DNA from: Naegleria gruberi
Lineage: Eukaryota
Assembly (NCBI GenBank): GCA_000004985.1
Contig: GG738857.1
DNA length: 64,000 nt
Direction: 5' to 3' (one strand)
The notes beneath the pieces were generated by a model. The model saw nothing but the letters and a program-made list of their open reading frames with translations. It did not search any database and had not been told where the DNA came from. Within the stretch, counting starts at the first letter, position 1. Every line of letters starts with the position of its first letter. This document shows positions 10,261 to 52,500 of this stretch, piece by piece. Position numbers and translations under genes: made by a program.

Positions 10261-10313
10261 GTATGTGATATTCGAAAGTCAAGTTTAATTTATTTTTATA
10301 ATAATTTGATTAG

Positions 10314-25035: not shown

Positions 25036-26070
25036 GTGGCCAGCGACCAAAAGAACAAAAGAATTCGATATCAATTCATCATCTGAGAGAACTCCTCCAG
25101 TTTCCTTGTTATTTCTACGTTCTTTCAATAGGAGAGAGAGGATATCATTGGATTCTTCTGCCAAATTGTTTTCACGTTCTCTCTTGGCAATGATTTCTTT
25201 AATGACATTACGGAAAGAGTCAACTGAGTCATGGATTTTTGCTAACATGCCAACTTTTACATTCTTTCTGAGGAATTGGGTTGGAACTACACGATAGAAA
25301 TCAGCATTTCCTAAAAAGATATTGGTTTTGGTTTCCAGAGTTTCTTCTCCAGGTTTAGAATAGAATGAATCGAAAGAATATCCAAAACCTGCCTTACCAA
25401 TAACATCCTATTGTAATAGGTTAAAATATTCTCAATTCATTCAATAACATACCATAGTCAACTTGGCAAAATCACTCATAACATCTCTTCTCTTCAAATC
25501 CTTCATAATATTTGGAACCATATCATTCTCCAATGTATTATTTGTAACACTTGCCACCAAACTCAAAGATTGTGGAGTAAATCCAGGATCTATCAAGTGT
25601 CTTTGATGTGACCAAGTTTGATGATCATCCTCAGCAAAGATATTCGAACCAAGGAACAATTCTAAAAAGGTTCTCTTTTGCATGGCATTCTTCTTGTAAA
25701 GTTTGGCACCTTTAGTTGCAATTTCCTTTCCCATATCAGGATCTGTTATGACAAGGAATGGAAATCCAATCATTCCCAACATGATTTTATAATAATCTTG
25801 AGATTGTCCTCTTGTCAACTCGATTATTGTTTCTGGTTGAAAAGGAATTCCAGGATTGGACAAGTATCCATTCGGAACCATCCACTTTGGCAAAATACTC
25901 ATCACAATAGGAGGAATGAACTGTTGATATCCCTTCTCGATATGAACAAATTGTTTCTTCATCTTTGTATATTGCAAATAACGTTCCACCATGAAAACTG
26001 CAATTAAAACAATGGAAACAACAATGGATCCGATGAGAAGCCACCCAAAGGAAGATAAATATTCAATCAT
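25033..26070 (-). pseudogene. truncated cytochrome P450 (locus B): N-terminal two-thirds only
   Basis: Exon 1 (26070..25453) has the membrane anchor 'WLLIGSIVVSIVLIAVFMV' and 'GFPFLVITDPDMGKEI'. A 45-nt GTATGT..TAG intron at 25408..25452 follows. Exon 2 (25407..~25033) runs '..DVIGKAGFGYSF....LSDDELISNSFVLLVAGHE', which is the I-helix start. The ExxR, PERF and heme-loop region is absent. The sequence beyond 25033 is unrelated low-complexity. Confidence 0.6.
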
Positions 26071-28566: not shown

Positions 28567-28639
28567 GCCCGTCTAGCTCAGTCGGTAGAGCGCAAGGCTC
28601 TTAACCTTGTGGTCGTGGGTTCGACCCCCACGGTGGGCG
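28567..28639 (+). tRNA. tRNA-Lys (anticodon CUU), eukaryotic nuclear type
   Basis: 'GCCCGTCTAGCTCAGTCGGTAGAGCGCAAGGCTCTTAACCTTGTGGTCGTGGGTTCGACCCCCACGGTGGGCG'. Cloverleaf with a 7-bp acceptor stem. A-box 'TAGCTCAGTCGG', B-box 'GGTTCGACC', anticodon loop 'ggCTcTTaaCC'. The CCA is not encoded. A T-run follows immediately, acting as the Pol III terminator. Confidence 0.95.
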
Positions 28640-28682: not shown

Positions 28683-29190
28683 AATTAATTCTATTAAGTA
28701 TTGCTCTGAAGTGCTTTCAGAGTTCAAAAATTGTTTTCTCAAACCCTTGCGAGCAAGAAAACGAGTAGAAAAGGGCAGATTGCAATCAGCAATTACGTGT
28801 TTCACAATGACGATCAATAACAACGTAAAATCCCTGGACAAGAACTGTTTGGAAATAACTGGATAGTGAGTGATGTATTAGTAAACTCGAAAATGGCATG
28901 GAAAATAATAATATATTGTGGTTTTGGCAAGGTTGAACCAGTAGCATTATCACTGCACCTTCGAAGAATTGGATCTTCTTTCAAAGTATCTTTGCAAAAA
29001 TCCATCTTTTCAAAATGGACATCAACATCTGAATTTTATTTATCTTTCGAAATGCAAAATGTTAATTCATGAAAGTTTTCACTTCATGGACATAAGAGCA
29101 CCACATTTATTTTACTGAAAAAGGAATTAATTGGAAAACTGCTCTTCTGGATTATGCTAAATCAGTTCTTGCTTGAGTTTTTGTGGATTA

Positions 29191-32294: not shown

Positions 32295-33849
32295 ATGAGT
32301 AATAGTGATAGTAGTGAAGGTAGTTTGGATATTACCATCTCTGAAGAAACACAAAGTAGATCCCAAATTGCTAAAGCCATCCTCAAGGAAAAGTATGGTT
32401 CACAAAAACTGGTAAAGGAAGGTGTATCCACTTGGACTGATCTTCTTAAATCACGTCTTTCATTGGCTGATTTTGATGTCATCAAGGTTATTGGTAGAGG
32501 TGCTTTCGGAGAAGTAATGTTAGTCAGAAAGAAGGATTCAAAGGAAGTTTTGGCTTTGAAAAAGTTGATCAAGAAGGAAATGATGAAGAAGAAGCAAATT
32601 CTCCACGTTAGAGCAGAAAGAGACATTTTGGCCCATTCTAATAATCCTGTATGTATTGTTTTTATTCTCTCCTCTGTAATATTTACCAACAACTATATAA
32701 TGTATTCTTCTAATTGACAATTTTATTATATAATATTTGATAATATATTTAATAATTATTCATCATATCACGTGACGATGATGTTGTATTATTGGATATA
32801 TAATGGATGACAAACTTTTCATATGATATCATATGGAACTGTATTCAATATACAAATTTAAACATTAACAGTGGATTGTAGATTTACGTTATTCATTCCA
32901 AGATGATGACAATCTCTACTTGGGTATGGAATTCTTACAGGGAGGAGATTTGATGACTTGGTTGATAAAGAAGGAAATTTTCACGGAAGAACAAACAAGA
33001 TTCTACATTGCAGAACTCATTCTTGCTGTTGAATCTATTCACAAAATGAATTATGTACACAGAGATTTGAAACCAGATAACATTTTACTCGATTCTAGAG
33101 GTCACATCAAGTTGACTGACTTTGGATTGTGTAAGCCTTTTGATGAAGATCCATTCGAGGATGTCAGTGAAGAAGAAATGAAACAAGCTCAACAAAATGA
33201 TCAAAAAGGTCCAATTGACAAGGTTGACTCATTGTCTAGAAGAGAAAAGATGAGAAGTTGGAAGATTGAAGGTAGAAAAATGTTATATTCCACTGTTGGT
33301 TCACCTGGTTATATTGCTCCAGAAGTTTTGTTAAAGAAGGGATACAGATATGATTGTGATTGGTGGTCTGTTGGTGTAATTATGTACGAAATGATTTATG
33401 GTTATCCACCTTTCTATGCTGATGATCCAATCAAGACATGTCAAAAGATTGTCAGATGGAAACACTTTTTGGAATTCCCTGATGATATTAATGTTAGTGC
33501 TGATGCTAAAGATTTACTTCAACATTTATTATGTGACACTGACAAACGTTTGGGATCAGAAGATGATAAATCAAGAGGAATTGATATTATCAAGAAACAT
33601 CCATTCTTCAACGGATTTGATTGGTATACTGTCAGATCCAAACAAGCTCCATTCACACCTGATGTCAAATCTGATTTGGATACAACCCACTTTGATGAAT
33701 TTGGTACACCTGGTGTTAATAGCCCAACTGTTCTCTCCAAATCAAAGGTTGCCAAAAATCAAGTAGCCGAATTTACTAATTTTACCTATGTCAGAGATCA
33801 AGATAAGAGCAGAAAAGGTTTGGATTCAATCTTCCCAAATCAAAAATAA
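32295..33849 (+). CDS. NDR/LATS-family (Cbk1/Dbf2-like) AGC Ser/Thr kinase, two exons (32295..32648, 32872..33849)
   Basis: GTATGT donor at 32649 and CAG acceptor at 32871 give a 223-nt phase-0 intron. The spliced product reads '..AHSNNP|[21 protein letters not shown]..'. Motifs [31 protein letters not shown]. It has the NDR-typical long activation-segment insert between DFG and '[10 protein letters not shown]', and a C-terminal hydrophobic motif 'FTNFTYV'. Confidence 0.9.
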
Positions 33850-34305
33850 ATTTTACAACACATTCAACATTCAAATAAATCTGTCAATATTATTTGTGAT
33901 GAATCATCAATGTGCAAATTTGAGCAAAACGATCAGTAATACCGCGTGCAACATTCTTTACTAATATTTTCACACTTTACAATTAACAGCTACCAAAAGA
34001 GGCAAGCTTTACAACAAGTATTTAACATTATGTTTGATTTGACTTGATTCAACAGGAGTATCCTTCATAAATGGTCTTCGTTAGTCTTGCATATCGTTAT
34101 ACCTGCATTATGAGTGTTAGATTCCCACTGTAATGAAGGTTAAATTTCACTCCAGCAACTTCCTCAACCGCAAGCTTTTAATAGCCACTTTTAACCTTCT
34201 TGTAACCTAGCAAGAAATCTTCAAATACTTCACTTTTAAACCACAGCTTAAAAAAATCAACAACAATCTTCATCATCCAATTAATTTATTATTACTTATT
34301 ACAAA

Positions 34306-36672
34306 ATGTCCCACTCCTCTCTTATTGGTTCATCTGTTGAATTTTTGCAAGCTTTGGAACAAGTTGGAAAACAAGCTGGCACCGAATCATCATCGTCCTA
34401 TGTTGCTCAAGAAAGATTTTTGGGTAGCAAGGATTTGATCAAAACAAGATTCGGGGATGATAAAAGTGCCTTGGAAAGAGTTGTTGTAGATTTGATGGAT
34501 TCATCAAAGACTCCACTCATCAGAGATCAACGTATTGGTGTCAAATTGGCAATCCACCAACAAGTTAATAAGAGTGGTTTGAGAGCCTTGTTATTGGCTG
34601 ATCAATCGAGAACCTTGAGTGATTTGATTGCTGCTCACGTTCATCAAGTATTTACTAATGAAGAATTATTGAATTTATTTGATGATGAAAATTTAAGTGA
34701 ACACACAAGAGTGAGAGTAGAAAAGACTATTCGTAATGAATGCAAGAATTTGATTCTTGATGTTGTTAAGAAGATTATTGGAAAGGTTAAACCTTCGGAA
34801 TGTGTTGTTTTACTTTCTCATTTGCCATCATCGACACCAAGTGAAGCAATTTTGGAACTTTTGAATGAATTAAAACTTGAAACTCTCGAAGGATCAGTAA
34901 TTGTTAGAAAGCATCCAGAAGTTGTTGCCAAGTTTATTAGACAAGAATTGGATAAGACTATCAAGGGAGCTGTTCCACAAGTTTCATTGTGGAATCTCTT
35001 GATTGCTACCTTGAATGAACTTTCATCGGTTTTCAACACATTGAGCAAGGTTAATCCAACACTTGCCTTTGCCATCATTGATGAATACTTTGTACAATAT
35101 GCTCTCAAGGAAGATATTCCAGTTGATGCTGTTCAATCCTACTTGTTGCTCAAGGTTAAAAACTTCCCAGAAACCTTCAAGTCATGCATCAATTCCAAAT
35201 CCAAGATTCAACTCAACGTTTCACAACTTTTGAAAATGTTCTCCATCGAAGATGTTGCTGGAATTTATTTGAAGAAGCTTGAAACTTTAAATTATGCTAC
35301 TTCACCAGAATCAAGTGCCTTTTTGAGATCATTCGAAGTTTACGATAACAGAGATGCCAAGAAGGTTGTCATTCTCATTAGCAAGTTGGTTGCTAAGGGT
35401 GCTACTGTTGAAAAGTTGAGTGATTGGATCTTTAGAAATGTTCAACCATCAACTGATATTCCAAGCTTTTTGAAATACTTCCCACTCCCTGTTATCCACA
35501 GTGTCGCTACCAAATTGTACGAAGTTAGAAAGTTGAAAGACTTTTCCACTCCAGATCAAGAATCCAGATATTGGAGATATATGAATATGGTTGAAGAAGA
35601 AGCTTCCTATAAGAAATTTAAAGGATCTTGCTCAAATTCTAATTCCAATGTCAGACTCAATGTTTTACTTGACTTGTTCTTCTGTTCTCTCTTGCACAAT
35701 AAGAGAGTTAAGGAAACTTTGGAATTTATGGATTCTCGTTTGAAGAATGATGTCGAATCAATTCCTACTGTCATTTCAACCCTTTCTAGTGATATCTTCT
35801 TTGCTACAAAAATCTTTTCTCTTTACAAGAATGAAGAATATAGAGAAGCTTTACACACTCTCTTGGAAAATACTGCCAAAAAGTCAGAGGCTCCATGGTA
35901 CTACAGAAACTTCTTCTCATCAGTCTTCCGTTATTATAAGGATGATATTACAGTTCTCAAGTTCCTCATTGAGAAAACTTCCAATTTTGCCAAGTTTAAC
36001 GATATGGGCTTTATTGGTCTCTATGGTGTTACCTTGAAGCCAGAAATTCACAAGGTTGTCTCTGAAATTCTCTTCCAATCTATGATAAACAAAATTGAAT
36101 CTGAAGGAAATCCTCAAATATTGAGAGATGTATTGAACTTGGGAAGATACAAGAAACAACCAAAACACGTTAAAGAATTATACCAAAAGTTCTTCGACGA
36201 ATGGATTCCACTCATTTTCAAGAAGGATCCTTACATTGGTTCAGTAAATGATATTGCTAATGGTGCATTCAAAGGTATTGAAAAGAAGGAAGCCATCGAA
36301 TTGGTGAAAAAGGTATTGGCCTATGAAGCTGCTTTCATCATGTGTGATAGAGTTCAAAAATTATTGCTCTCCCGTACCACCAACTTGGAAACTGATTTCA
36401 TCTTCAAATTTATCAGGGAAAAGGCCTTGACTGGTGCTGAATTGCAAGCTCTCTCTTCTAGTGGTTTTATTCATAGTGATTATGTTGCCGCAATCCTTCC
36501 TCAATATTTGGGAAGCTTGAGACTTGAAGAATTTGCTTCTCCAGAACTTACCAGAAGACTCATCAGTACCTATGAAAACTTGTTGTTCAGATGTGGAAGA
36601 GTTAACCCTATTAGTTTCTGCTCAACATATGTTTCTAATACCAGTATTTGCAAGATTATGATCAAGACATGA
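34306..36672 (+). CDS. large helical-repeat (HEAT/ARM-like) protein, 5' part (788 aa before an assembly gap)
   Basis: Long ATG ORF, predominantly alpha-helical in appearance. No catalytic motifs. It stops 18 nt before the 609-N gap. Confidence 0.55.
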   Translation: MSHSSLIGSSVEFLQALEQVGKQAGTESSSSYVAQERFLGSKDLIKTRFGDDKSALERVVVDLMDSSKTPLIRDQRIGVKLAIHQQVNKSGLRALLLADQSRTLSDLIAAHVHQVFTNEELLNLFDDENLSEHTRVRVEKTIRNECKNLILDVVKKIIGKVKPSECVVLLSHLPSSTPSEAILELLNELKLETLEGSVIVRKHPEVVAKFIRQELDKTIKGAVPQVSLWNLLIATLNELSSVFNTLSKVNPTLAFAIIDEYFVQYALKEDIPVDAVQSYLLLKVKNFPETFKSCINSKSKIQLNVSQLLKMFSIEDVAGIYLKKLETLNYATSPESSAFLRSFEVYDNRDAKKVVILISKLVAKGATVEKLSDWIFRNVQPSTDIPSFLKYFPLPVIHSVATKLYEVRKLKDFSTPDQESRYWRYMNMVEEEASYKKFKGSCSNSNSNVRLNVLLDLFFCSLLHNKRVKETLEFMDSRLKNDVESIPTVISTLSSDIFFATKIFSLYKNEEYREALHTLLENTAKKSEAPWYYRNFFSSVFRYYKDDITVLKFLIEKTSNFAKFNDMGFIGLYGVTLKPEIHKVVSEILFQSMINKIESEGNPQILRDVLNLGRYKKQPKHVKELYQKFFDEWIPLIFKKDPYIGSVNDIANGAFKGIEKKEAIELVKKVLAYEAAFIMCDRVQKLLLSRTTNLETDFIFKFIREKALTGAELQALSSSGFIHSDYVAAILPQYLGSLRLEEFASPELTRRLISTYENLLFRCGRVNPISFCSTYVSNTSICKIMIKT

Positions 36673-36689
36673 GAAAGCTTGCTGTGAAC

Positions 36690-37298
36690 NNNNNNNNNNN
36701 NNNNNNNNNNNNNNNNNNNNNNNNNNNNNNNNNNNNNNNNNNNNNNNNNNNNNNNNNNNNNNNNNNNNNNNNNNNNNNNNNNNNNNNNNNNNNNNNNNNN
36801 NNNNNNNNNNNNNNNNNNNNNNNNNNNNNNNNNNNNNNNNNNNNNNNNNNNNNNNNNNNNNNNNNNNNNNNNNNNNNNNNNNNNNNNNNNNNNNNNNNNN
36901 NNNNNNNNNNNNNNNNNNNNNNNNNNNNNNNNNNNNNNNNNNNNNNNNNNNNNNNNNNNNNNNNNNNNNNNNNNNNNNNNNNNNNNNNNNNNNNNNNNNN
37001 NNNNNNNNNNNNNNNNNNNNNNNNNNNNNNNNNNNNNNNNNNNNNNNNNNNNNNNNNNNNNNNNNNNNNNNNNNNNNNNNNNNNNNNNNNNNNNNNNNNN
37101 NNNNNNNNNNNNNNNNNNNNNNNNNNNNNNNNNNNNNNNNNNNNNNNNNNNNNNNNNNNNNNNNNNNNNNNNNNNNNNNNNNNNNNNNNNNNNNNNNNNN
37201 NNNNNNNNNNNNNNNNNNNNNNNNNNNNNNNNNNNNNNNNNNNNNNNNNNNNNNNNNNNNNNNNNNNNNNNNNNNNNNNNNNNNNNNNNNNNNNNNNN
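36690..37298. other. assembly gap (609 N)
   Basis: Run of N. The listed ORFs made of X spanning it are artefacts. Confidence 1.
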
Positions 37299-37441
37299 TC
37301 AGCATTAATTGAATTTTTGGAACTAAATTCCTTCCAAAGAATGCCAAGAAGGATGAAGAAAAAGTTGAACAAGATGAAGAAGAAGATGTTGAAGAAGATG
37401 ATGAACAAGAACCTGTAGAAGCTGGAGAAGAAACTGTCAAG

Positions 37442-38860
37442 ATGGATGTTGAAGATAATGCCACCAGATGCTTGGCCTCCCTCGTCAGAATTTACTCTCA
37501 AAACCCAGTTGAACATTTGCAATATGTTTTAGAAAATATCAGCTCTGAAAACGTCTTGTACTACTTCTCTGCTATTGGTAGAATTTCAACCTTCTACAAT
37601 GATGTCAAATTCATTGATGCTTACTGTGCCATTTTGAAGAAGCAATTCACTGAAGTTCTCACTTCCAAACAACCTCTTCCAACCAATATGAGCATTGCTG
37701 TTCAAAAGATGTTAATTTCCAGACTCAAGGCCTACGTTCAACATTTGAATAGTGAAATTCCAAGTAAGATTGTTGATACTCTCGTTCAAATTTGGGATTT
37801 GAAACCACAAAAGGATGTTCAAGTTGCAATTTTGAGCACCATCTTGTTGGCTATTAAGAATGATAGAACTGATCAACTCTACAATAAGGCCAAGAGTATT
37901 TTGGAACAAGCTACTACTCATGAATATGAAGATATTGTTCTTGCATTGGCTGGATTTGGTCCAACTAAGAATGTTACTACCATGAGAGAAATCTTCTCCT
38001 TGAGATTGAAGACTCTTGAACATCCAACTTCCAAGATTCAAACCTCTGCATGGTCAACTGTTTCCAGCTCTGCAACCACACCTTCCTTCATTAAGAGAGT
38101 TGCTTCAGAAAGTTTCAATCCTATTGCCTTGTTCAGAAAGTACATTGTTGATGCTGTTCTCACTTTTAATCCACAACAACAACACAATATTGCCAACGTT
38201 GCCATTGATGTCTTGCTTAAGGAAATTATTCAAACTCCAGAAGAAGCTGGTTCAATTTTACTTGACAGTATTTTGGTTCCTCTCTTGACTGAAGAAAAAT
38301 ACCAAAAACTCGATAGAGAAACTTACAATGCTGATATTACTTGGGATAGACCTGTTAAGGCTCGTTTGGCCCATATTGTCAATTCTCTTTCTACAAAGGT
38401 TGCATCTACTTACTTGCTCATTTCAGACAGCAATAAGCAAACTATTCAATCAAAGATTGTTTTACCACTTGTTGAAGTTGTTAAGAAGCACGTTCAAAAT
38501 CGTCTTCCATATGTCTGCATTGTTTCATCAATTAATACTAACTGGAATGATGTTGACTCTGTTGTTCAAAACTCAATCAAGAATGTTGCCGATTTATTAA
38601 GTGATGTTGAAGAACCATTGAAGACCCTCATTTTGTCCAAGATTGTTAATCACTCACATCAAATTACTCTCAATAGATCCAATGTCAATGTTCTCCTTGA
38701 TGCAGTTGCAAAGGTTTTGAATAATGCCAGTGAATTCTCTCAAACTGAACAAATTATTGCTACAGGAATTTTGATGAGTCTTGGAACTGCTGATGACAAG
38801 ACAAGAGAATTGAAGAAGATTGCCAGAAAGAGTAATGTTCTCAATTTGTTGACTGAATAA
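37442..38860 (+). CDS. helical-repeat protein, probably the 3' part of the 34306 gene
   Basis: The frame is open from 37313, directly after the gap. It opens with an acidic linker 'DEEKVEQDEEEDVEEDDEQEP', then runs ~470 aa of helical repeats. Strand and character match 34306..36672. An ATG is at 37442. Confidence 0.5.
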   Translation: MDVEDNATRCLASLVRIYSQNPVEHLQYVLENISSENVLYYFSAIGRISTFYNDVKFIDAYCAILKKQFTEVLTSKQPLPTNMSIAVQKMLISRLKAYVQHLNSEIPSKIVDTLVQIWDLKPQKDVQVAILSTILLAIKNDRTDQLYNKAKSILEQATTHEYEDIVLALAGFGPTKNVTTMREIFSLRLKTLEHPTSKIQTSAWSTVSSSATTPSFIKRVASESFNPIALFRKYIVDAVLTFNPQQQHNIANVAIDVLLKEIIQTPEEAGSILLDSILVPLLTEEKYQKLDRETYNADITWDRPVKARLAHIVNSLSTKVASTYLLISDSNKQTIQSKIVLPLVEVVKKHVQNRLPYVCIVSSINTNWNDVDSVVQNSIKNVADLLSDVEEPLKTLILSKIVNHSHQITLNRSNVNVLLDAVAKVLNNASEFSQTEQIIATGILMSLGTADDKTRELKKIARKSNVLNLLTE

Positions 38861-38911
38861 ATAGTTTACAAAGATTAATTGTATTAAATATTCATTTCAA
38901 TTTGAAGTAGA

Positions 38912-39460
38912 CTACGAAGGATCAGGCTCGCCTGCCATCCTCCTCAATATATAGGTTACCAAAGGATCAAATGTGTTAAAAGCATAAACAATAAACACAA
39001 TTGACATTATGGCTAATACTACAAATAAAATAATTGCCAATCCTAATATAACTATTCCTACAATCTTAATTTCCGCATTCCCATTCAATCCAAACGTCAT
39101 GGCCATTGTAAAATCACTCGCGTTATTGTAGTAACATCCAAGTATTGGTGTAGAATTGGTCAGAACAACGACATTAGTTTCGTCTAGAATCGAACAAGGA
39201 AATTCAACCTTTTCTTCTTGTTCTACTGTTATTGAATAATTATCTTTCCTGAGATAGTATCTCATAATTGTTGTATCCTTACAAGTTCCTCTTCCTGCAC
39301 ATGTGCTTGTTGCGATTTTACATTCCGAAGCAAAACAATCTTGATGATGGGAACCTGTCAATGTAAATGCCACCATGACAGTTCCTACAGAGCACGAGAT
39401 GATCAGGATGACGCAAACGGAGAGAAGAAAGATACCCAACCGAAGGTAGAAAACATGCAT
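38912..39460 (-). CDS. small Cys-rich single-pass membrane protein (family member 1)
   Basis: Signal/TM 'LRLGIFLLSVCVILIISCSVGTVMV'. Then 'LTGSHHQDCFASECKIATSTCAGRGTCKD'. Then a C-terminal TM 'IVGIVILGLAIILFVVLAIMSIVFIVYAF'. Paralogous to 47206..47563. Confidence 0.55.
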   Translation of the reverse strand: MHVFYLRLGIFLLSVCVILIISCSVGTVMVAFTLTGSHHQDCFASECKIATSTCAGRGTCKDTTIMRYYLRKDNYSITVEQEEKVEFPCSILDETNVVVLTNSTPILGCYYNNASDFTMAMTFGLNGNAEIKIVGIVILGLAIILFVVLAIMSIVFIVYAFNTFDPLVTYILRRMAGEPDPS

Positions 39461-39565
39461 TCGTCTTCGAGGTATTTTTTAGAGATCGAATTTATTCGAA
39501 AGTTCCCTTGTGTCATAAAAGGAAAGATTTAAAAATTAAATTTAATACAATGTGACCCAATTCCA

Positions 39566-41719
39566 TCACAGATCTATCAACCAGGTTTGGTGTTTGTTTT
39601 TTTTGAGTTTTCTGTTTTCCTCTTCCAATATTTTAATTCTTTCCGAAAGTTTGTCAACATCCTCTAATATTTTAATTCGTTCCAGTAAAGAGTTCTCCTC
39701 CAATAGGTTAATTCTTTCTAATAGGTTGGTATTTTCATCAGAAAGTTTATCAACTTCCTCTGCAAGTTGAGAGTAGCTCCTTAATGGTGAGATTTTCTTC
39801 AATTCTCCAATTTCCTTTTCAATATTCAAAGTGATATCTTTGATTTCACCTTTCAAAAATTTCAAAATATTCTCAATGGTTAACTTGTGAGAATAACAAT
39901 TCAATCTTTTTGATGAATCTCTTTGAATCATGCTAATAATGCTTCTAATCAATATGTTATTCACTCCTAAATCTGGATTAATCGTTTCATTGATTAGTTT
40001 TTCAATTGCATAATGTAATTTCATTTCTCCCTCTGTTGTTGTTACAACTGTATAGAAATATTTTCCATGTCCACTAAAATATGGATACTTGTCATTATAT
40101 TTAGAGATATCTGAATCATTAACAAATCTTTCACACAATTGCAAAGGACAATTTGTTAATAATTTCAATAAAATACATCCCAATGAAAATATATCACACG
40201 AAATGGTAATTTGTCCAACATTGTGAGCAAGTTTTTCATCATCACCACTTTTCAATAAATCATCAGAATAATTATCATGTGAAACTTCAGGAGACATGTA
40301 TGCAAACTTTCCACGAGCAATTGTAATTGAATTACCTGTCTTGATAACTCTTGATGTTTCAAAATCAATAATTTTGTAATGATCTTGAACTTTGACAATA
40401 TTTTGAGGATCTAAATCTCTGTGCAAAATGTTGTGATCATGAATTGACTGAACTGATTTCAATACTTTGATAAATATTTCAAGAATTTCAATCAACTTTT
40501 CCTTCTTAATGAATCCATTTCTATAAATTTCACTTTCATTATTTCTTGAAATGTAATTTGATAATGATTCCTCTCCAAGTTCCATCACTGAATATAAATG
40601 ATTTTGAATAATTTCACAATCAAAACATTTGATCTTTCCTTCAATATCTGTTCTTTTCAATAAATTAATGGTTTCTTTTGTTGATTCTTCAGATTCCTCT
40701 GGATCATATTTTAATTTTAATGCCCTTAATGATTTGCTACTTTTGTGAAATACTTTGAATGCAACACCTTCACCTCCATATCCTAACAATGAAATAAAAT
40801 CATAATTATTTTTGAAATAATTATAGAAATAATTGAGAGCTTTGAATACTTTTGATAAATCTCCTCTCAGCTCATTATATTTACACAAGGTTTGTTTGTA
40901 ATTTTCAAATGTTTGCTCATTTTCAAACCACTTGTTGGCAAAATTCATAATTTCAGTAATTTCCTGTTTTGTATAAAATGATGTTTCGAAATTTGTTGCA
41001 ACTTGTTCCACAATATTCTTCAAATCTTTCATTCTTGTTGATTGACAGGGATTATCTTCAAGATATTTGTCCAATCTGAAACAAAATAAATAATAATTGA
41101 CTCTTTCTGGAAGAAGAGTTTCAGTGGATAATTCTGAATGGTTCATTCGTTTCAATATTTGGAAAATAATCAACTTTTCAACAAATACTGGTGTATAGAT
41201 AGAATTAAAATTGAATATTGTACCTTTTGGTGTTGGATTAAAGAGACTTGTTAATTCAATAGCATAATATAAATCCTTTTCATTCATAAATATTTTGGAG
41301 TATTGTTCAATTATATTAGTTGACAGCTTTGTCTGAAGATTAATGGATTCTTCAATTGTTTTGGTTATAGAGGGTGAGAACCTTCTTGCATTTACCTTGC
41401 TAAATTTAATTAATAAATAAATAAATATACTATCTTCTTTCAATGATGAATCAGCATATTGAAGTGCCTTTCCATGTTGTTTAACAGATTCCAATACAAA
41501 TTCTCTGTTTTTCCTCAATGATGAATCTGCATATTTAAAAGCATATCCATTTTGTTTGACAGATTCCAACACAATTTCTCTATCTTTTTTCAATGATGAA
41601 TCAGCATATTCAAGTGCATTTCCATTTTTTTTAACAGCCTCCAATATAATTTCTCTATCTTTTTTCAATGATGAATCAGCATATTGAAGTTCCAATCCAT
41701 TTTTTTTAACAGCATCCAA
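39566..41719 (-). CDS. DUF4116-like repeat + protein kinase + C-terminal coiled coil
   Basis: Four N-terminal ~25-aa 'AVKQNGxALxYADSSLKKDREIVLE' repeats. Kinase motifs 'LLGYGGEGVAFKV', 'ALKLK', 'HRDLDPQNIV' and 'DFETSRV' (DFE in place of DFG), and 'YMSPEV'. The C-terminus has heptad repeats 'LERINLLEENSLLERIKILEDV'. The listed start is TTG. The nearest ATG (41749..41747) is in another frame; see findings. Confidence 0.8.
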   Translation of the reverse strand: MDAVKKNGLELQYADSSLKKDREIILEAVKKNGNALEYADSSLKKDREIVLESVKQNGYAFKYADSSLRKNREFVLESVKQHGKALQYADSSLKEDSIFIYLLIKFSKVNARRFSPSITKTIEESINLQTKLSTNIIEQYSKIFMNEKDLYYAIELTSLFNPTPKGTIFNFNSIYTPVFVEKLIIFQILKRMNHSELSTETLLPERVNYYLFCFRLDKYLEDNPCQSTRMKDLKNIVEQVATNFETSFYTKQEITEIMNFANKWFENEQTFENYKQTLCKYNELRGDLSKVFKALNYFYNYFKNNYDFISLLGYGGEGVAFKVFHKSSKSLRALKLKYDPEESEESTKETINLLKRTDIEGKIKCFDCEIIQNHLYSVMELGEESLSNYISRNNESEIYRNGFIKKEKLIEILEIFIKVLKSVQSIHDHNILHRDLDPQNIVKVQDHYKIIDFETSRVIKTGNSITIARGKFAYMSPEVSHDNYSDDLLKSGDDEKLAHNVGQITISCDIFSLGCILLKLLTNCPLQLCERFVNDSDISKYNDKYPYFSGHGKYFYTVVTTTEGEMKLHYAIEKLINETINPDLGVNNILIRSIISMIQRDSSKRLNCYSHKLTIENILKFLKGEIKDITLNIEKEIGELKKISPLRSYSQLAEEVDKLSDENTNLLERINLLEENSLLERIKILEDVDKLSERIKILEEENRKLKKNKHQTWLIDL

Positions 41720-42122
41720 TACAAATTTCCTATCGGCCTATTGTTGTAGTCATCCATCACACGTTAATAAAATCCCATCACAAAACACAAACCCAATCTT
41801 CGCCAAACATTTTTTTTAAAGTATAATAATTATAATAATTATTATAATTATTGACATTTAATTCCTTCTCGATATATTATAATAATACCGATCACTTTCT
41901 AATTAAATTTTGATTTAAGGTCCTATCCACAAAAGACCTATATTCCGATCATTCATTTTCTTTTTGGACTATTGCTAATACATGCATTTTTGTATGATAA
42001 AAGAGGGTCTACTTGTCTTACATTTTTTTAATTTAAATTTAAAAAGAATTTGAAAAATTAAGTAAGCGTTTTTTATTTGAAAGATTTTTTACCTTAATTT
42101 TGAACTTGTACTACAAATGTGC

Positions 42123-45080: not shown

Positions 45081-47049
45081 ATGCTGAAAAAACAAAAGTT
45101 TTTGTTCCTTAATTCAAAAAAGTTTAAAAAAAAAATGATCACAATGAACATGTCTCATCCTCATCCTCCGATGCTACTCTATAATTCTCAACAGCACGCC
45201 TATCTAGTATCATTAGTCTCCCAAAATAAATTAACAATGCAAATAATTCAAGAATCAATTTGTTATATAAATTGTAATGTTCCGAATTATTTACCTTCCT
45301 TGTTGTTTGTGGCGGTTGAGAATAAAAAGATGGATATGATTAAATTATTATTGAGTTGTTCGCAAATTAATCCGAATATTGGGGTATGTGATGGTTCTTA
45401 TTTAAATATATTTAATAATATTTATTGTAAAATATTTACAAAAATTTATTTAGAAAGTTGAACATGTTAATGATGGATCCATGGTTATTTCACCTCTTGG
45501 ACTTGCTGTAAAGAAAGGATTAACAGAAATTGTAAAAATCCTCGTACTGGATCCAAGAATTGAAATTGGGACTGGATGTGTAAAGTATGAAACATTTGGA
45601 GCAACAAATTACACTTGTTTGGATCTGGCATGTGGAGAATCTTTATTTAAAGTTGTGGAATTGTTACTGTTTCATCCATATGTTCAAGTTAATCTGCCAC
45701 TTTTACATCATCATACACACCTCAGACGATATCCATTGACAGTTGCTTGTGAAAACAACTGTATTGAAATTGTGAGATTGCTGCTTGCACGACCAGAAAT
45801 TGATATCAATGTTACACAAGATCCAAAGCATAACAATTGTATCGATCAATTCAGTTTGAATACTCCTATGTTTTCTATTGAGGAAATTAGAAAGGTTGGT
45901 TTCAATTATCAAATAATCTATGATTTGATTGTTGCTGGACTCACTCCAAGCAATCCTACGCTTCTTAAAGATTATTCACTTGAGGAAATTAAGAGGAGAA
46001 AGTTCAAGTATTTCACAAATAGAATTATAATCCAGAAATTTGAATGGGACAAAATTGGAGATACCAATTTGACTGCATTTGTTCCCTTACTGAAAATAAT
46101 GGATCCAGAATTAGAGACCATTTTGAAATTAGGTGTAAACTTTGATAAGGAAGAAGAACGTTTTGTTCAAACGGTTATTGATTTTCTTATTTATGGATCG
46201 GATATAGATTTTCGTCAATTATTTCAGGCCTATTCTAATAAGGGTCATAATGCCAATATTAAGGGAGTTATTGGTGCTCTCGTTCTGTGTGGTTCATTAC
46301 CACAAATCAATAGTTTATGTTACGAGTGTATATCAATACTTATCAAAGACGAATATTCTTTAGATATGGTATTTAATATTTGGAAAATAATTCATGAGTA
46401 CGAGAAGAGATTTCCATCATTATTGCAAAGTATGAACAAGTCCCTTGTTGGAAAAATCAAACAGCATGTATTAGACTGTATTGGAAACTTTGGACTAAAG
46501 AAGGATGCTAATATTTCAGAATTTCTTTCAGATTTTGATAATTACCATGAAGTCATTGAAGCCTTAATGAAAAGAAGAGCAACACCCTCATTCCCAAAGT
46601 TTAGCAAAAACGAAACCATCTCATTTCCATTTTCATCAGTTAAATTATTCGACCAACTTGCTTTAGATTCAACAACTGATATAGAATTGCAAATTGGAAA
46701 AGAGAGAGTGAAATGTCACAGAACAATTCTCATGTCAAAGAGTACTTATTTCGCTACCTTATTGAATGGAAATTGGAATTCACAAAACGATAACTATCCT
46801 ATTGAAATGAAATATCTCATTCAATTCTGTTATGGATTTTTAGAATATGTTGAACCTAAACTTTGCATTCCATTGATGAAATTAGCAAATATGCACGAAA
46901 TGAAAGAATTAGCCATTCAGGTTGAAAAGCAAGCAATCATCACAAGAATCAATGTTGCTGAATATTTGAATTCACTTCTAAATGATGTTGAAGAACAGGA
47001 GAATGAAATTATTCAAGAGTTCATTCGAAGGATTGTCTTGTACAAATGA
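45081..47049 (+). CDS. ankyrin-repeat + BTB/POZ protein, two exons (45081..45383, 45454..47049)
   Basis: GTATGT donor at 45384 and TAG acceptor at 45451..45453 give a 70-nt phase-0 intron. It joins '..INPNIG' to 'KVEHVNDGSMVISPLGLAVKKGLTEIVKIL..'. Contains 4–5 ANK units and a C-terminal BTB 'TDIELQIGKERVKCHRTILMSKSTYFATLLNGNW'. Confidence 0.8.
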
Positions 47050-47205: not shown

Positions 47206-47563
47206 CTAGCGGAATTTACAATTTACAACAACAAGTACAATTGTGCATACAAAGGTACATGCAACAATAAATACGAAAGCTAGAGTTAAAAAGATTAGCA
47301 AAGCCAATCTTCCAAAATCGTTTTCAGTATTTGACAAGGAGAGGCCTAGAACATTGTAAGGTGTAGGAATAGGAAATAACTTTATCAACACATCCAATAC
47401 TGATACATGTGCTTCTCTTTAGGGCACATTCAAATGCCAAACAATCATCGCGTCTTGTACCAGTCAAGGATAAGGCACTCATAACGATACCAACTATAAA
47501 ACCAATGGATATGATAGAGAAACAAGCACCAATAGTAGCCAAGAGCAATAGACCTTTATTCAT
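47206..47563 (-). CDS. small Cys-rich membrane protein (family member 2), two exons (47391..47563, 47206..47344)
   Basis: 'VGIVMSALSLTGTRRDDCLAFECALKRSTCIS' aligns with member 1. A 46-nt intron (donor GTGTTG at 47390..47385, acceptor CTAG) joins it to the C-terminal TM exon 'LSLSNTENDFGRLALLIFLTLAFVFIVACTFVCTIVLVVV'. Confidence 0.45.
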
Positions 47564-47814: not shown

Positions 47815-48726
47815 TTAAATCATGATCATTATCAAGACCATCACCAAAACTAAATAATTCGAAACCTTTACAATATCCACACTACTCACTGATATCTTTG
47901 TAAAGGTAGAAAACGAGCTAGGATATCCAAACGCAATCACCTTACATGCAGTACAACTTGTCTTGTGATTATTCATATAAATTGAAAAATCAACAACATC
48001 ACCAATGATGGCATGAACTCTATTTCCAATAACTGCATCGAATTGTTCATCATATCCCAATGGAAGATAGGTTGCAAGTGGAAGGTTTTCCTTGATCCAA
48101 TCCTCAAAGATAGTTCCAGAATAAGCTCCCACAATGGTGCCATTCTTATTGAACGAGTAAACATTTGAACTATATCCAAGAGTTTCGTTATCCTTATTGT
48201 TTCGAATAAATCCGTATGAAGTGGAGCCATATGGACATGTTTGAAAGCTTACTTGAGTGGCTCTATCTGATGAATAAGAAGTGTCAGCAACAACAACATC
48301 ACATCTTCCATCATTTACGGCATTTGACAAGGATGTAAAAAATCCATCGGTTGTGTTTATGAGAACGAGTGAATTTTCCAATGACATTGAATATTGAGTA
48401 TTGATTGCCTTGGTCAATTCTTCAGCAACCAACTTGTAGGCACTCGTCCAAGGTTCCATTGATTCCATTTGATAACAATTCTTCAGTTGACTCATTCCTT
48501 TGAATGGATTCACACTCGGAAACACAACATTTGATGAACATTTAGGAACGTTGAAGAGAAGAATATCGAATATTTTGCTTTGGAATGTAGATTCTTGAAC
48601 AATGTTTTGAATGGCAGCATTAATTGCTTGTGTGAAGAGAGCTTGTTGACTATTTGTCAAGTCAATTGTCATGAAAATGATCAACACTGCAAGAAAATTA
48701 CTAGCAATAGATGAAGGAGCAAACAT
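47815..48726 (-). CDS. secreted/anchored protein with a solute-binding-protein family-3 / iGluR-ligand-binding-like fold
   Basis: Signal peptide 'FLAVLIIFMTIDLTNS'. 'GRCDVVVADTSYSSDRATQVSFQTCPYGSTSYGFIRNNK' and 'DAVIGNRVHAIIGDVVDFSIY' resemble the two hinge segments of SBP_bac_3 / Lig_chan-Glu_bd domains. Hydrophobic C-terminus 'NYLVLVMVLIMIMI'. No channel TM domains. Confidence 0.5.
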   Translation of the reverse strand: MFAPSSIASNFLAVLIIFMTIDLTNSQQALFTQAINAAIQNIVQESTFQSKIFDILLFNVPKCSSNVVFPSVNPFKGMSQLKNCYQMESMEPWTSAYKLVAEELTKAINTQYSMSLENSLVLINTTDGFFTSLSNAVNDGRCDVVVADTSYSSDRATQVSFQTCPYGSTSYGFIRNNKDNETLGYSSNVYSFNKNGTIVGAYSGTIFEDWIKENLPLATYLPLGYDEQFDAVIGNRVHAIIGDVVDFSIYMNNHKTSCTACKVIAFGYPSSFSTFTKISVSSVDIVKVSNYLVLVMVLIMIMI

Positions 48727-48898: not shown

Positions 48899-49573
48899 GC
48901 CATCAAGGTGATTCTCTTGCATTTTCTTATTTTCCTTTTCACACTTTCAATATGGAACTAATATCCATCATCAAGTAAATAGGCAGCAAATCGAGTAATT
49001 CACTCGGAAAGGATCATCCATAGAGATTAACAGTGTGACTTGGTATGAGTTTAAATTCACCATAGTTGTTGATGAGTAAGTATTGAATGTTCCGAAAGAC
49101 TTTCCTTTTTTCGATGGTTTGGTAGTACGTGGACCGACGGTTCTACCTTCCTTTTTGTTGGCATTTGGTTTGTTATTCTTCAAAGGATTCTTGTTTTTGA
49201 AAATAAATTTTAAATCAAATAATAATTATTTTAAAAAAGAAAAAATATTCAAAAAATGATGAAGCAGCTAAACTACCTTTTCTCATCATCGGAATGTTGA
49301 GAACTTTATCATGATTCCGTATCATCAAGTAGTTTTCTTTTTGATGGAAATAATAGTGTGAGAGATTACTTGACACTGAAGAGGTGGAGTTAATAGCAAA
49401 ATAATGGGTCTACCAAACTTCATATAAATATCTAGTGAGAAGGTGGACAAGACTTGGGAATTGTCAATTACTGATTTTACAACGACTTGGTTACGATAAT
49501 CATCCTTTTGTAATTCCCAAGTGACGACTCTGTTGGTTTCCAAGTAATTACTCGTCAACTTCCACAAAAAAAA

Positions 49574-52500
49574 ATGTTGACAGGGAGCAGAGACTCTTCA
49601 TCAGTAGCTGCCGTTGACCAACAAGATCCACGAAGCCAAAAACAAGATATGACTTTCGAGTACACATATTTGATACAAGCACTATTGAATCAAAATCCAA
49701 AACTGAATAATTCTGAGTTTATTCAAGAGTTCAAAAAAAAGTTAGAGTCTTTTAAAGAAGATATTCAATCAGCCTACGAATTCACCGTTTCATTTAGTAA
49801 CTATTTAAAGAAGGGCAAGGATGGTACGTTGCACGAGTTGAAATCTTTCAAATTCTTGAAAGTGGCAAGTCACAAGCAACACTCATTTTTTCCAAAGAGG
49901 TTTTATGTAAAGGCAGTTGGTATTAATAATGATAGCACAACTGTATACCAATTACCAAAACTTATTGAGAGCAACAGAGTGTTTAGAAAATTTGACTTGA
50001 TGGATTTCATCAAAGTTCAGTTTTCTGAGAACAGCAAAGTTTTGGACATGATAACAATTCTTGACAAGAAATTCCAAGTTGTTGGTGGATCACAAAGCCA
50101 AATCAAAAAGGGATCTATTTACTACTATGACATCTCGAAACTGGAAACTGGAAAAACAGCCAATAGCTTGATGGATAAACTTGGAAAGTTCGATAATGAC
50201 TTTTTCAAGAAGATATCAAGACAAAGTTTAAATTTTACTCCTACTGTACGCATATGTACTCTTAAAAAGGATGATATTGTTGAAGAGGACGATACATATG
50301 CAGGGAATGGGTCCATATTATCGGATGGAATAGGCATGATATCTTATTCTTTTGCTGCTGAGCACTTGAAGAATGAAAAAGAAAACTTACCAACAGCATT
50401 CCAAGTAAGAATTGCTGGTTTTAAGGGGATGTTAACAGTGTATCCTGATGACATGCTAAAAAGAAAAGGAGTTAAAAAGAAAGTGATTTTGAGAAAAAGT
50501 ATGAAGAAATTTGAGTGTAACAAAGATGACAAATATGATCTAGAAATAGTGGCATCCACGAAGGAAGAGCCATCTCCCGCCTATTTTAACACACAAGTCT
50601 TTCTTTTGCTTTATTCACGCCGCATGAATTTCTTCTCTCAAAAGAAAATTGAGAATTATGATTATGATGTGATGAAAATACTGAAATCCCATTACGGTGA
50701 TGTTTTACCAAGTATTGATAGAGCGTCCTTTCACTCAAATCCTTTTTTGATAGATTTGTTGAGAAGTACACTAGCAAAGAAAAGAGATAATGGTAACATG
50801 TTGGTTACAGAAGGTATGACATGTTATGGTTTGCTGGATGAAACTAAAGAACTTAAAGAAAAGGAAGTTTTTGTAATGTTGGGAAACAAACATACCAAGT
50901 ACGCTAAACCAAATACCAAATTTTTAAAGAGTGGGACAAAGGTGTTAGTTTTCAGATATCCAGTATTGAATATAAATGAGATAAAGATGCTGACTGCAAA
51001 AGAACCTATCAATAATTTACAATTGAGTACAAATGATTGTGCAGTTGTTTTTTCAAGTGTATGTGCTGCATCTGATATTTCAGGTGACCTTGATGGTGAC
51101 AAGTATGTTGTTATTTGGGATGAATCATTATCCCTGATAGGAGATAATATTACAAAAAAAATTGAATTGAAAGAGAAAAAAAAGGAAGATAAAGAGGAGC
51201 AAACAGAGTATGAAGAAATTATACCAAAAACGAAAGTTACACCAAAAACACTTTCAGAAGCGTTCACTCATTTAATAATAGCGCAACAGTACGTCGGAAA
51301 GATAGTAACGACCTGGCAAAATACAATAATGAATGGAAGATACACATATCTAACAGAATCTAGAAAACTAGCCAAACAATTCCAAATTGCAATGGACTTT
51401 CCTAAAACTGGGATACTTCCAAACATTGATTTGCTGCACTCGCCTCCAAACTCTCCCCTAAAGACTGTAAGAAAGAGAATAGATTTTATGTACAATTTTT
51501 TGACTCCAATATCTGACAATTCTAAAGTTGCTAAAATACCACCAGATATCAAGCCTATTTTTGATAAATATATAGCAGAGATGGAACATTGGAAGTTGGT
51601 TTTGGGTATAGATGAAGTAGGAGTGATTACAAGAAAGAGTGTGTTTGAACCTATACAAGAGAAGTTTTCTAAACAATTAGAAGGAAAGTCAGTTCCAATG
51701 AGTTTGGGGAGTTTTTCATTGCTGATGAAACCATCTGGAAAGGCTAAAAAATCAAAATACTCCAGTTTTAAAACAATACTGGAGGGAAATTTCAGAGAAT
51801 TTGTCGAACAATATTTGAAAAGAATTTTTAATAATGGGAAGGAGGAATTGAAGTATTTACAAAATTCCCTTAAAGAAATTACAAACAACCAAATTCTTTG
51901 GAAATACATTGCTCAAAAGCCAAATCTATACCTCATTCTTACTTACCTTATAGATAGAAATAATACAATGATGAAATATGAACAGTTTGCTACAGATGAG
52001 TTGGTGTGGTCTTTTATCAAATATTGTATTTTAAAAGAATACCTTGTTCACGAAGATGAAAATCAGGCTGTTACTTACGAAAAGGAAGAGCCAAACCTGG
52101 AATACCTCCTTGTTGAATTTAAAAAAGATAACCATTTCACTACAGAAATAGATAAGTTGATTGGTTTTATTACTGATATTCCTAAAATGGATATATGGTA
52201 TCCGAGAATTAAGGAAGTTTGTGAAAAAGTTAATGTAGAATACATTCCATTTTCAGAATTACTTCCATTACCTAATGAAAAAATGCTCGGAAAAGGAATA
52301 CATGGAGAAGTGTTTCCAATGATGTTCCGATCAAAAAGAGTTGCTGTTAAAAAAGTTGAGTTTATATATCCAGATACTATTACTGGGTTTTTAGACGAGT
52401 TGGACCTTTTGGCAAAACTTAGAGGCCATGAAAATATAGCTGAATTGTATGCTGTTTCTCTTGATGGATACAATGGGTTTTTAATCATGGAATATTGTGA

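What the first reader, a model, noticed from the sequence alone, without database searches (positions are those of the whole stretch)
38912..39460. Previously unrecognised family of small Cys-rich membrane proteins (two members, second at 47206..47563)
Two minus-strand genes share an unusual layout. Each has a hydrophobic signal/anchor, then 'LTGxxxxDC(F/L)A(S/F)EC..STC', then a C-terminal TM helix. Member 2 is shorter and needs a 46-nt intron to join its halves. No known family was recognised. A paired N-terminal anchor and C-terminal helix around a Cys-knot-like loop would fit a small tetraspan-like or secreted-anchored signalling peptide.
Basis: seen in the sequence. Interest (0 to 1): 0.5.

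Follow-up and report, generated by a model that had tools for sequence, protein, structure and literature searches.

The report
Orphan Naegleria small membrane protein pair
Two small genes 8 kb apart in the amoeba Naegleria gruberi share a short cysteine-containing segment next to a membrane helix and match no known protein family; one is a real, conserved gene, the other is unannotated and possibly broken, which is ordinary for this genome.

Summary
The window is Naegleria gruberi. Member 1 (38912..39460, minus strand) is the already deposited 182-aa 'predicted protein' NAEGRDRAFT_65348. Member 2 (47206..47563, minus strand) is in no protein database.

- **Similarity:** it is real but short, about 35-45 residues covering the end of the first hydrophobic segment plus a C-x4-C-x6-C-x4/5-C loop (BLASTP E=4e-9; shuffle p<2e-4). 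The C-terminal helices are alike in layout only.
- **Member 1:** it is under purifying selection. All 5 differences from a 98-99% identical second strain are synonymous (P=6e-4).
- **Member 2:** its two halves lie in different frames. Its donor is GTGTTG and its GC is 33%, whereas four clear introns in this window all begin GTATGT and have 13-23% GC. Splicing, another donor (55 or 61 nt) or a 1-nt frameshift cannot be told apart here.
- **Relatives:** none were found in Pfam, PDB, 1.84 billion protein representatives, JGI metagenomes or IMG/VR.
- **Structure:** AlphaFold is confident only for the two helices.

Most likely these are lineage-restricted secretory-pathway membrane proteins with a disulfide-bonded outward-facing loop. 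'Tetraspan-like', 'Cys-knot' and 'signalling peptide' are unsupported. Interest is low.

The parts
38912..39460 (-). Member 1 coding sequence, 182 aa plus stop. It equals N. gruberi predicted protein NAEGRDRAFT_65348 (EFC46894.1, UniRef D2V908).
   Evidence: The ORF is listed. It is an exact database match. All 5 of 5 differences from strain contig L001 are synonymous third-position changes, P=6e-4.
39350..39439 (-). Member 1 N-terminal hydrophobic stretch, residues 8-37 (30 uncharged residues). It is either a signal peptide (h-region 8-21, small residues S22/S24/G26) followed by a short conserved hydrophobic stub, or one long signal-anchor helix.
   Evidence: Hydropathy analysis is. AlphaFold gives a helix at 2-36 with pLDDT about 67-75. 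Cleavage is inferred from the -3/-1 rule and was not computed.
39281..39388 (-). Member 1 conserved module, residues 25-60: VGTVMVAFTLTGSHHQDCFASECKIATSTCAGRGTC.
   Evidence: BLASTP alignments are. The degenerate motif hit at 39299..39361 is.
39071..39280 (-). Member 1 specific loop region, residues 61-130. It is predicted all-beta, carries 2 further Cys (C89, C109) and 3 N-x-S/T sequons (N74, N102, N113), and is absent from member 2.
   Evidence: Sequons and Cys positions are. AlphaFold predicts strands but with pLDDT<50.
38978..39064 (-). Member 1 C-terminal transmembrane helix, residues 133-161. It is followed by a 21-residue hydrophilic tail with RR.
   Evidence: Hydropathy maximum is 3.4. 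Summed insertion energy is -5.7. AlphaFold gives a helix at 129-175 with pLDDT 73-79.
47392..47563 (-). Member 2 first coding block (57 codons plus 1 base): an N-terminal hydrophobic stretch and the conserved module VGIVMSALSLTGTRRDDCLAFECALKRSTCISIG. Without splicing the frame runs on to a stop at 47324 and gives 79 aa.
   Evidence: Sequence and ORFs are. The motif hit at 47405..47467 is. It is not in any protein database.
47346..47391 (-). Candidate 46-nt intron of member 2 (GTGTTG...TTCTAG), unverified. Alternative donors lie at 47400 (GTATTG, 55 nt) and 47406 (GTATCA, 61 nt). A 1-nt frameshift anywhere in 47327..47418 is an equally valid arithmetic solution.
   Evidence: Frame-restoring options are enumerated. 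Comparison with four clear introns (all GTATGT, 43-70 nt, GC 13-23%) against GC 33% here is.
47206..47345 (-). Member 2 second coding block, including the stop: LSLSNTENDFGR followed by a hydrophobic helix (47224..47307) and then NCKFR.
   Evidence: The open frame is. Similarity to the member 1 C-terminus is not significant (p=0.06-0.11).

Best explanation
These are two paralogous, lineage-restricted ('orphan') Naegleria gruberi genes for small secretory-pathway membrane proteins.

Each protein starts with a hydrophobic targeting segment. A conserved block follows: about 12 hydrophobic residues ending in LTG, then a four-cysteine loop C-x4-C-x6-C-x4/5-C. A second hydrophobic helix sits near the C-terminus.

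Inferred topology: the cysteine loop faces the lumen or the outside of the cell, where it can form up to two disulfides. In member 1 the loop side also carries three N-glycosylation sequons and an extra beta-rich region of about 70 residues. The C-terminal tail, with basic residues after the helix, is cytosolic.

The first segment has two possible fates. If it is cleaved as a signal peptide, the result is a type I membrane protein whose mature N-terminus is the conserved hydrophobic block. If it is retained as an anchor, the result is a two-helix hairpin.

The conserved juxtamembrane block is the functional core, plausibly a disulfide-stabilised contact or oligomerisation element of a cell-surface protein. 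This step is inferred, not shown.

Member 1 is a functional gene. Member 2 is a minimal, unannotated copy that is either spliced through an atypical short intron or disabled by a frameshift.
For: - **Organism and gene identity:** established.
- **Paralogy:** BLASTP E=4e-9; phmmer E=1.4e-8 over the six-frame window with no third copy; shuffle p<2e-4 for the loop alone.
- **Member 1 is functional:** L001, a contig from a second strain that is 98-99% identical, encodes the identical protein. All 5 nucleotide differences are synonymous, P=6e-4, whereas the neighbouring genes show 5 synonymous to 5 non-synonymous and 9 to 8.
- **Hydrophobic segments:** there are two per protein, and AlphaFold models them as helices at pLDDT about 70-79.
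- **Charges and sequons:** basic residues lie before segment 1 (R7 in member 1, K3 in member 2) and after segment 2 (RR and K-F-R), and all three sequons lie between the segments (read from the sequence).
- **Conservation pattern:** the first ~24 residues are variable and conservation starts at V25/V24.
- **Room for a gene:** member 2 sits in a 765-nt gap between flanking stop codons (47049 and 47815), whereas the gaps around member 1 are 51-105 nt.
- **Orphan status:**. Species-restricted genes are common in Naegleria (PMC8296547).
Against: - No expression data could be consulted for either gene.
- Homology is shown for only about 35-45 residues. The C-terminal helices are not significantly similar.
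- The ectodomain model is unreliable, with pLDDT<50, so no fold supports any function.
- Signal-peptide cleavage, disulfides, glycosylation and surface location are all inferred.
- Member 2's candidate intron has a non-consensus donor and exon-like GC.
- The codon-usage test was only weakly discriminating.
Confidence: 0.6

Rival explanations
1. Member 2 is not a spliced gene. It is a decaying paralogue in which a 1-nt frameshift separates the N-terminal part from the former C-terminal helix. Alternatively it encodes only the 79-aa product, which lacks the C-terminal helix.
For: - The gene is 358 nt, one base more than a multiple of three, so a single-base indel anywhere in the 92-nt overlap of the two open frames (47327..47418) explains the frames as well as an intron does.
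- The candidate intron starts GTGTTG and has 33% GC, like the exons at 34-38%. Four clear introns in the window all start GTATGT and have 13-23% GC.
- No gene model exists at this locus in any source searched.
- BLASTP extends slightly into the 'intron' (21/45 identities, E=7e-10).
Against: - The extension into the 'intron' is not significant on its own (p=0.4-0.5).
- Both frames are still open, the second still encodes a clean 28-residue helix, and a GT..AG of typical Naegleria length (46 nt against 43-70 nt) restores the frame exactly.
- The sample of reference introns is small.
Confidence: 0.4
2. The shared module is a very diverged piece of a known cysteine-rich domain, either the first half of a tenascin/teneurin-type EGF repeat or the start of the Pfam Vps3844_C domain. 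On this view the genes are not a separate family.
For: - Member 1 residues 43-76 match PF12955 Vps3844_C positions 2-35 of 104 at E=0.017-0.026 and 15-16 bits.
- Member 1's C-A-G-R-G-T-C resembles the C-S-G-R-G-V-C of an EGF_2 repeat encoded in the same window at 59063..62083, with a local score at p=0.03.
Against: - The PF12955 score is well below the gathering score of 27, covers a third of the profile, and falls to E=2.5-5 when more of the protein is supplied. Member 2 gives no hit.
- No EGF model is reported even at E<=10.
- Member 2 shows no similarity to the EGF repeat (p=0.81).
- The second half of an EGF domain (C-x-C...C) is absent.
Confidence: 0.1
3. The resemblance between the two ORFs is chance similarity between hydrophobic, cysteine-containing low-complexity sequences, and there is no family.
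For: Part of the aligned stretch is hydrophobic. The C-terminal helices are similar only in composition.
Against: - The hydrophilic 24-residue loop alone scores about 9 SD above shuffles.
- The 44-bit degenerate motif hits exactly these two sites, none in 100 shuffles of the window, and none in JGI metagenomes or IMG/VR.
- Both hits lie at the same distance from an ATG and directly after a hydrophobic segment.
Confidence: 0.02

Closest known systems
Pfam PF12955, Vps3844_C (formerly DUF3844)
   Same: A weak local match covers the Cys loop and the first following strand of member 1 (15-16 bits, E about 0.02).
   Different: The match is below the gathering score of 27 and covers only profile positions 2-35 of 104. 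It does not extend when the rest of the protein is supplied, and member 2 gives no hit. It is not a member.
Tenascin/teneurin-type EGF repeats (Pfam EGF_2, EGF_Teneurin), for example the repeat in the RCC1-EGF protein at window 59063..62083
   Same: The C-[AS]-G-R-G-x-C core is preceded by two cysteines. The position is extracytoplasmic.
   Different: Only four shared cysteines are present, and the C-x-C...C second half is missing. No EGF model is reported at E<=10. Member 2 has lost the G-R-G core (I-S-I-G).
Small protist surface membrane proteins with an N-terminal signal, a short ectodomain and one C-terminal helix, such as Plasmodium ETRAMPs and Giardia cysteine-rich membrane proteins (resemblance recalled from general knowledge, not tested)
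   Same: They share the size range, the signal plus C-terminal helix layout, lineage restriction and occurrence as small paralogous groups.
   Different: There is no sequence similarity and the cysteine patterns differ (no CXXC repeats, no lysine-rich region). This is an analogy of layout only.
Tetraspanins
   Same: Cysteines lie in an extracytoplasmic loop between hydrophobic helices.
   Different: There are two helices rather than four, no CCG motif and no Pfam hit.

Membership tests
Pfam PF12955 Vps3844_C | hmmscan score at or above the gathering score (27 bits) over most of the 104-position profile | tested here: not met
   Member 1 scores 15.2-15.8 bits on positions 2-35 only, falling to 7.7-8.8 bits with longer queries. 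Member 2 gives no hit.
EGF-like domain (EGF_2 / teneurin type) | Six cysteines in the C1..C2..C3..C4-x-C5..C6 pattern and a match to an EGF profile | tested here: not met
   Four shared cysteines only. No EGF family is listed at E<=10. Local similarity of member 1 to an EGF_2 repeat in the same window gives p=0.03, and member 2 gives p=0.81.
Tetraspanin | Four transmembrane helices and a CCG motif in the large extracellular loop | tested here: not met
   There are two hydrophobic segments per protein, no CCG in either sequence and no Pfam hit.
Cystine-knot peptides | At least six cysteines forming three disulfides, one threading a ring made by the other two | tested here: not met
   The conserved module has four cysteines. 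Spliced member 2 has only four outside the hydrophobic segments. Disulfide connectivity itself is not testable here.
Secretory signal peptide followed by a type I membrane protein | Positively charged n-region, h-region of 7-15 residues, small residues at -3/-1, and cleavage | tested here: inconclusive
   The n-, h- and c-like regions can be read in both proteins (m1 R7, L8-I21, S22-C-S24; m2 K3, L5-I18, S-I-G21), and conservation starts right after them. However, the uncharged stretch runs on for 30-33 residues and no signal-peptide predictor was available.
GPI-anchored surface protein | C-terminal hydrophobic signal with no cytosolic tail, preceded by a small-residue omega site | tested here: inconclusive
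   Member 1 has a 21-residue hydrophilic tail after the helix, which argues against a GPI anchor. Member 2 ends 5 residues after its helix, with S/N/D residues upstream, so a GPI anchor is not excluded. No GPI predictor was available.
Spliceosomal intron of N. gruberi (for 47391..47346) | GT..AG, the local donor consensus GTATGT, strong AT-richness, and spliced transcripts | tested here: inconclusive
   GT..AG and the length (46 nt) fit. The donor GTGTTG matches 3 of 6 consensus positions, and GC is 33% against 13-23% in four clear introns. Transcripts are not testable with these tools.

The most novel reading that the evidence does not exclude
The conserved block, a hydrophobic stub ending in LTG plus a two-disulfide loop held at the membrane surface, defines a Naegleria-specific family with further unannotated short members across the genome. 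On this reading the block acts as a self-contained surface module, for example a homotypic recognition or pore/fusion-assisting element. Member 2 would then be a minimal version produced through a non-consensus short intron.
Probability: 0.1. Interest if true: 0.4.

Novelty: new member of a known kind. Interest (0 to 1): 0.15.

Why it matters
The practical value is modest. The work adds one probable unannotated gene or pseudogene to the N. gruberi annotation. It links that gene to an existing hypothetical protein, and it shows that the hypothetical protein is under purifying selection.

If more members exist, the family could mark a Naegleria-specific surface component. Nothing here bears on a long-standing question, and orphan genes of this sort are common in Naegleria genomes (PMC8296547).

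Tried and rejected
**Searches for relatives**
- The word-indexed protein search with member 1 found only itself. With spliced member 2 it found nothing. These searches cannot see relatives as diverged as the two members are from each other, because the two share no 5-residue word.
- The exhaustive profile search of 1.84 billion representatives found only member 1 itself at E<=1e-3. A paralogue as diverged as member 2 scores about 31 bits, which corresponds to E of about 0.02 in that library, so it would not have been listed.
- JGI metagenomes were scanned twice, with back-translated peptides and with a 44-bit degenerate motif. IMG/VR was scanned once. All gave nothing.
- PDB sequences gave only noise.

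**Attempt to get a second-strain copy of the member 2 locus**
- Exact look-ups of both neighbouring ORFs and of the annotated neighbour P0002 found nothing.
- A homology search with the neighbour found only the NCBI protein.
- No selection test was therefore possible for member 2.

**Structure**
- AlphaFold on member 1 gave mean pLDDT 53.8 with the ectodomain below 50. On the ectodomain alone it gave 47.1.
- Fold searches were deliberately not run, because matches to such models are meaningless.

**Other tests**
- The three-row alignment used to pass both halves of member 2 into the profile misaligned the C-terminal helix onto the N-terminal one and was discarded.
- The codon-usage log-likelihood picked the proposed frames but barely separated them from antisense ORFs.
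- Literature searches for the gene identifiers, for Vps3844/DUF3844 and for the metagenome accessions returned nothing.
- The idea that the 'intron' is coding because the alignment runs into it was rejected as unsupported (p=0.4-0.5).
- No RNA gene or repeat overlaps either locus.

Full report
**Identity of the window.**
The 182-aa ORF at 38912..39460 (minus strand) is identical to Naegleria gruberi 'predicted protein' EFC46894.1 / XP_002679638.1 / NAEGRDRAFT_65348 (UniRef D2V908), on a 573-kb scaffold. The window has 33% GC. The neighbouring genes are typical of this amoeba. The upstream gene is a DUF4116-repeat protein kinase and a nearby gene encodes an ankyrin-BTB protein. Member 1 is therefore already in the databases as an uncharacterised protein.

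Member 2 is in no database. Neither the 103-aa spliced form nor the 79-aa unspliced ORF is present in the 15-billion-sequence collection. A search with the spliced form returned nothing even at E<=10, so no deposited gene model contains its first coding block.

**Checking the observation.**
Member 1 is M-HVFYLR, then 30 uncharged residues ending in TLTG, then SHHQDCFASECKIATSTCAGRGTC, then about 70 further residues, then a 29-residue hydrophobic helix and a 21-residue tail. Member 2 starts M-NK, then has 33 uncharged residues ending in SLTG, then TRRDDCLAFECALKRSTCISIGC.

The similarity is well beyond chance:
- BLASTP gives 17/34 identities at E=4e-9.
- phmmer with member 1 against all 1290 six-frame fragments of the window finds member 2 at E=1.4e-8, and the next hit is at E=0.25.
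- The 24 hydrophilic residues after the hydrophobic segment score 62 against 22 +/- 4.5 for shuffles.
- A degenerate DNA rendering of the motif hits exactly these two sites and none in 100 shuffles.

There is no third copy in the window.

The homology is short, however. The C-terminal helices are not more similar than their composition predicts (p=0.06-0.11). The short pre-helix stretch of member 2 is not significantly similar to member 1 either (p=0.22). At the DNA level the genes have diverged beyond recognition, so this is an old duplication and not a recent one.

**Member 1 is a functional gene.**
An ENA metagenome contig (L001, 6732 bp) is 98-99% identical to window 32749..40081 and encodes the identical 182-aa protein. 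Within the coding sequence there are five nucleotide differences. All five are third-position synonymous changes, at codons 3, 59, 113, 149 and 166. With 22.7% synonymous sites, the chance of this under neutrality is 6e-4. The flanking genes show 5 synonymous to 5 non-synonymous and 9 to 8 over the same contig. The gene is also tightly packed, with 51 nt to the convergent downstream stop codon and 105 nt to the upstream gene.

**Member 2 and the intron.**
The first frame stops at 47324. The second frame is open from 47418 to the TAG at 47206. Intervals of 55 nt (donor at 47400) and 61 nt (donor at 47406) use the same acceptor and also work.

To judge these options I collected introns in the window that are forced by long open frames on both sides. 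Four are clear: 10261..10313 (+), 45384..45453 (+), 25452..25408 (-) and 15921..15879 (-). All four begin GTATGT, end in TAG, are 43-70 nt long and have 13-23% GC. Comparison with the member 2 candidate:
- Its length fits.
- Its donor is GTGTTG, which matches 3 of 6 consensus positions. The two alternative donors, GTATTG and GTATCA, match 4 of 6.
- Its GC is 33%, like the exons.

The gene is 358 nt, so a single extra base would explain the two frames equally well. BLASTP runs a little further into the 'intron' (21/45 identities, E=7e-10), but that extension is not significant by itself (p=0.4-0.5). I could not obtain a second-strain copy of this locus. Splicing, a truncated 79-aa product and a frameshifted relic therefore remain open. 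In favour of a live gene, both frames are intact, the second still encodes a clean helix, and the locus fills a 765-nt gap between genes in a compact genome.

**What the proteins are likely to be.**
Each has two segments hydrophobic enough to insert into a membrane (the insertion scale was recalled from Hessa et al. 2005 and is my own recollection). AlphaFold models them as helices at pLDDT about 70-79, but it gives the region between them less than 50, and the ectodomain alone scores 47.

Basic residues lie before the first segment and after the second. The cysteines and all three N-x-S/T sequons of member 1 lie between the segments. This arrangement fits a loop on the lumenal or extracellular side with a cytosolic C-terminus.

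The conservation pattern is informative. The first ~24 residues differ between the two proteins, while identity begins at V25/V24. Small residues (S-C-S-V-G in member 1, S-I-G in member 2) precede that point. This is what a cleaved signal peptide followed by a conserved mature N-terminus would look like. The alternative is one long signal-anchor helix giving a two-helix hairpin. I could not run a signal-peptide predictor, so this step is an inference.

The conserved unit is thus a short hydrophobic stretch ending in LTG plus a C-x4-C-x6-C-x4/5-C loop that can form at most two disulfides. Any role at the cell surface is inferred from the layout alone.

**Comparison with known families.**
- Pfam gives nothing at or above a gathering score.
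- The best lead is a local match of member 1 residues 43-76 to the first third of PF12955 (Vps3844_C) at 15-16 bits (E about 0.02, gathering score 27). It does not extend, it weakens with longer queries, and member 2 lacks it.
- Member 1's C-A-G-R-G-T-C resembles the C-S-G-R-G-V-C core of an EGF_2 repeat encoded at 59063..62083 in the same window. The local score is marginal (p=0.03), member 2 shows none (p=0.81), and the second half of an EGF domain is missing.
- 'Tetraspan-like' fails because there are only two helices. 'Cys-knot' fails because there are only four shared cysteines.
- PDB sequences give nothing.

**Distribution.**
- The profile search of 1.84 billion representatives returned only member 1 at E<=1e-3.
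- Two JGI metagenome scans and one IMG/VR scan found nothing.
- No recognisable full-length orthologue is therefore deposited. A copy as diverged as member 2 (about 31 bits) would fall below the reporting threshold of the large search, and no Naegleria genome could be scanned at the DNA level. More short, unannotated members cannot be excluded.
- Species-restricted genes without homologues are common in this genus. N. fowleri has 458 orthogroups with no N. gruberi homologue, and 80% of those have no clear homologue in any other organism by NCBI BLAST (PMC8296547).

**Verdict.**
The sequence observation is real. The paralogy is real but limited to a module of about 35-45 residues. Member 1 is a functional orphan gene that is already deposited. 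Member 2 is a new, unannotated copy whose integrity depends on an atypical intron. This is an ordinary lineage-specific small membrane-protein pair, and interest is low.

Noticed in passing
window 49514..53125 (+): A single 1204-aa open frame combines a eukaryotic RNA-dependent RNA polymerase domain (PF05183, residues 141-642, E=2.6e-68) with a C-terminal protein kinase domain (residues 922-1183, E=4e-40). This is an unusual fusion.
   Followed up: no
window 28567..28639 (+) and 28706..28845 (-): A tRNA-Lys(CTT) gene and a U4 spliceosomal snRNA gene (53.3 bits, gathering score 46) lie 66 nt apart on opposite strands.
   Followed up: no
window 36690..37298: This assembly gap of 609 N is bridged by metagenome contig L001 with only about 13 bases (L001 2773..2787). 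The gap is either oversized in the assembly or the other strain carries a deletion.
   Followed up: partly
L001 (ENA ERZ929261, run ERR1078381), whole contig: A contig labelled 'metagenome' is 98-99% identical to N. gruberi over 6.7 kb, so a close N. gruberi relative or second haplotype is present in that sample. It has a 10-nt deletion in the intergenic region upstream of member 1, at window 39552..39561.
   Followed up: partly
window 39566..41719 (-): The upstream neighbour encodes DUF4116 repeats, a protein kinase domain and a C-terminal coiled-coil-like repeat region. The DNA shows 75-nt tandem units at 41430..41729 (the DUF4116 repeats) and 36-39-nt units at 39621..39719.
   Followed up: no
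window 47317..47340 and 48310..48333: A 24-nt stretch at the start of member 2's second coding block (SLSNTEND) is 83% identical to a stretch in the upstream 303-aa ORF (SLSNAVND). This is probably chance.
   Followed up: no
window 47815..48726 (-): The gene just upstream of member 2 encodes a 303-aa protein with an N-terminal signal-like segment, a borderline match to bacterial solute-binding family 3 (PF00497, 26.3 bits against a cutoff of 26.4) and a hydrophobic extreme C-terminus. It may be another surface protein.
   Followed up: no
window 59063..62083 (+): A 1007-aa open frame combines RCC1-like repeats with EGF_2/teneurin-type EGF repeats at its C-terminal end.
   Followed up: partly
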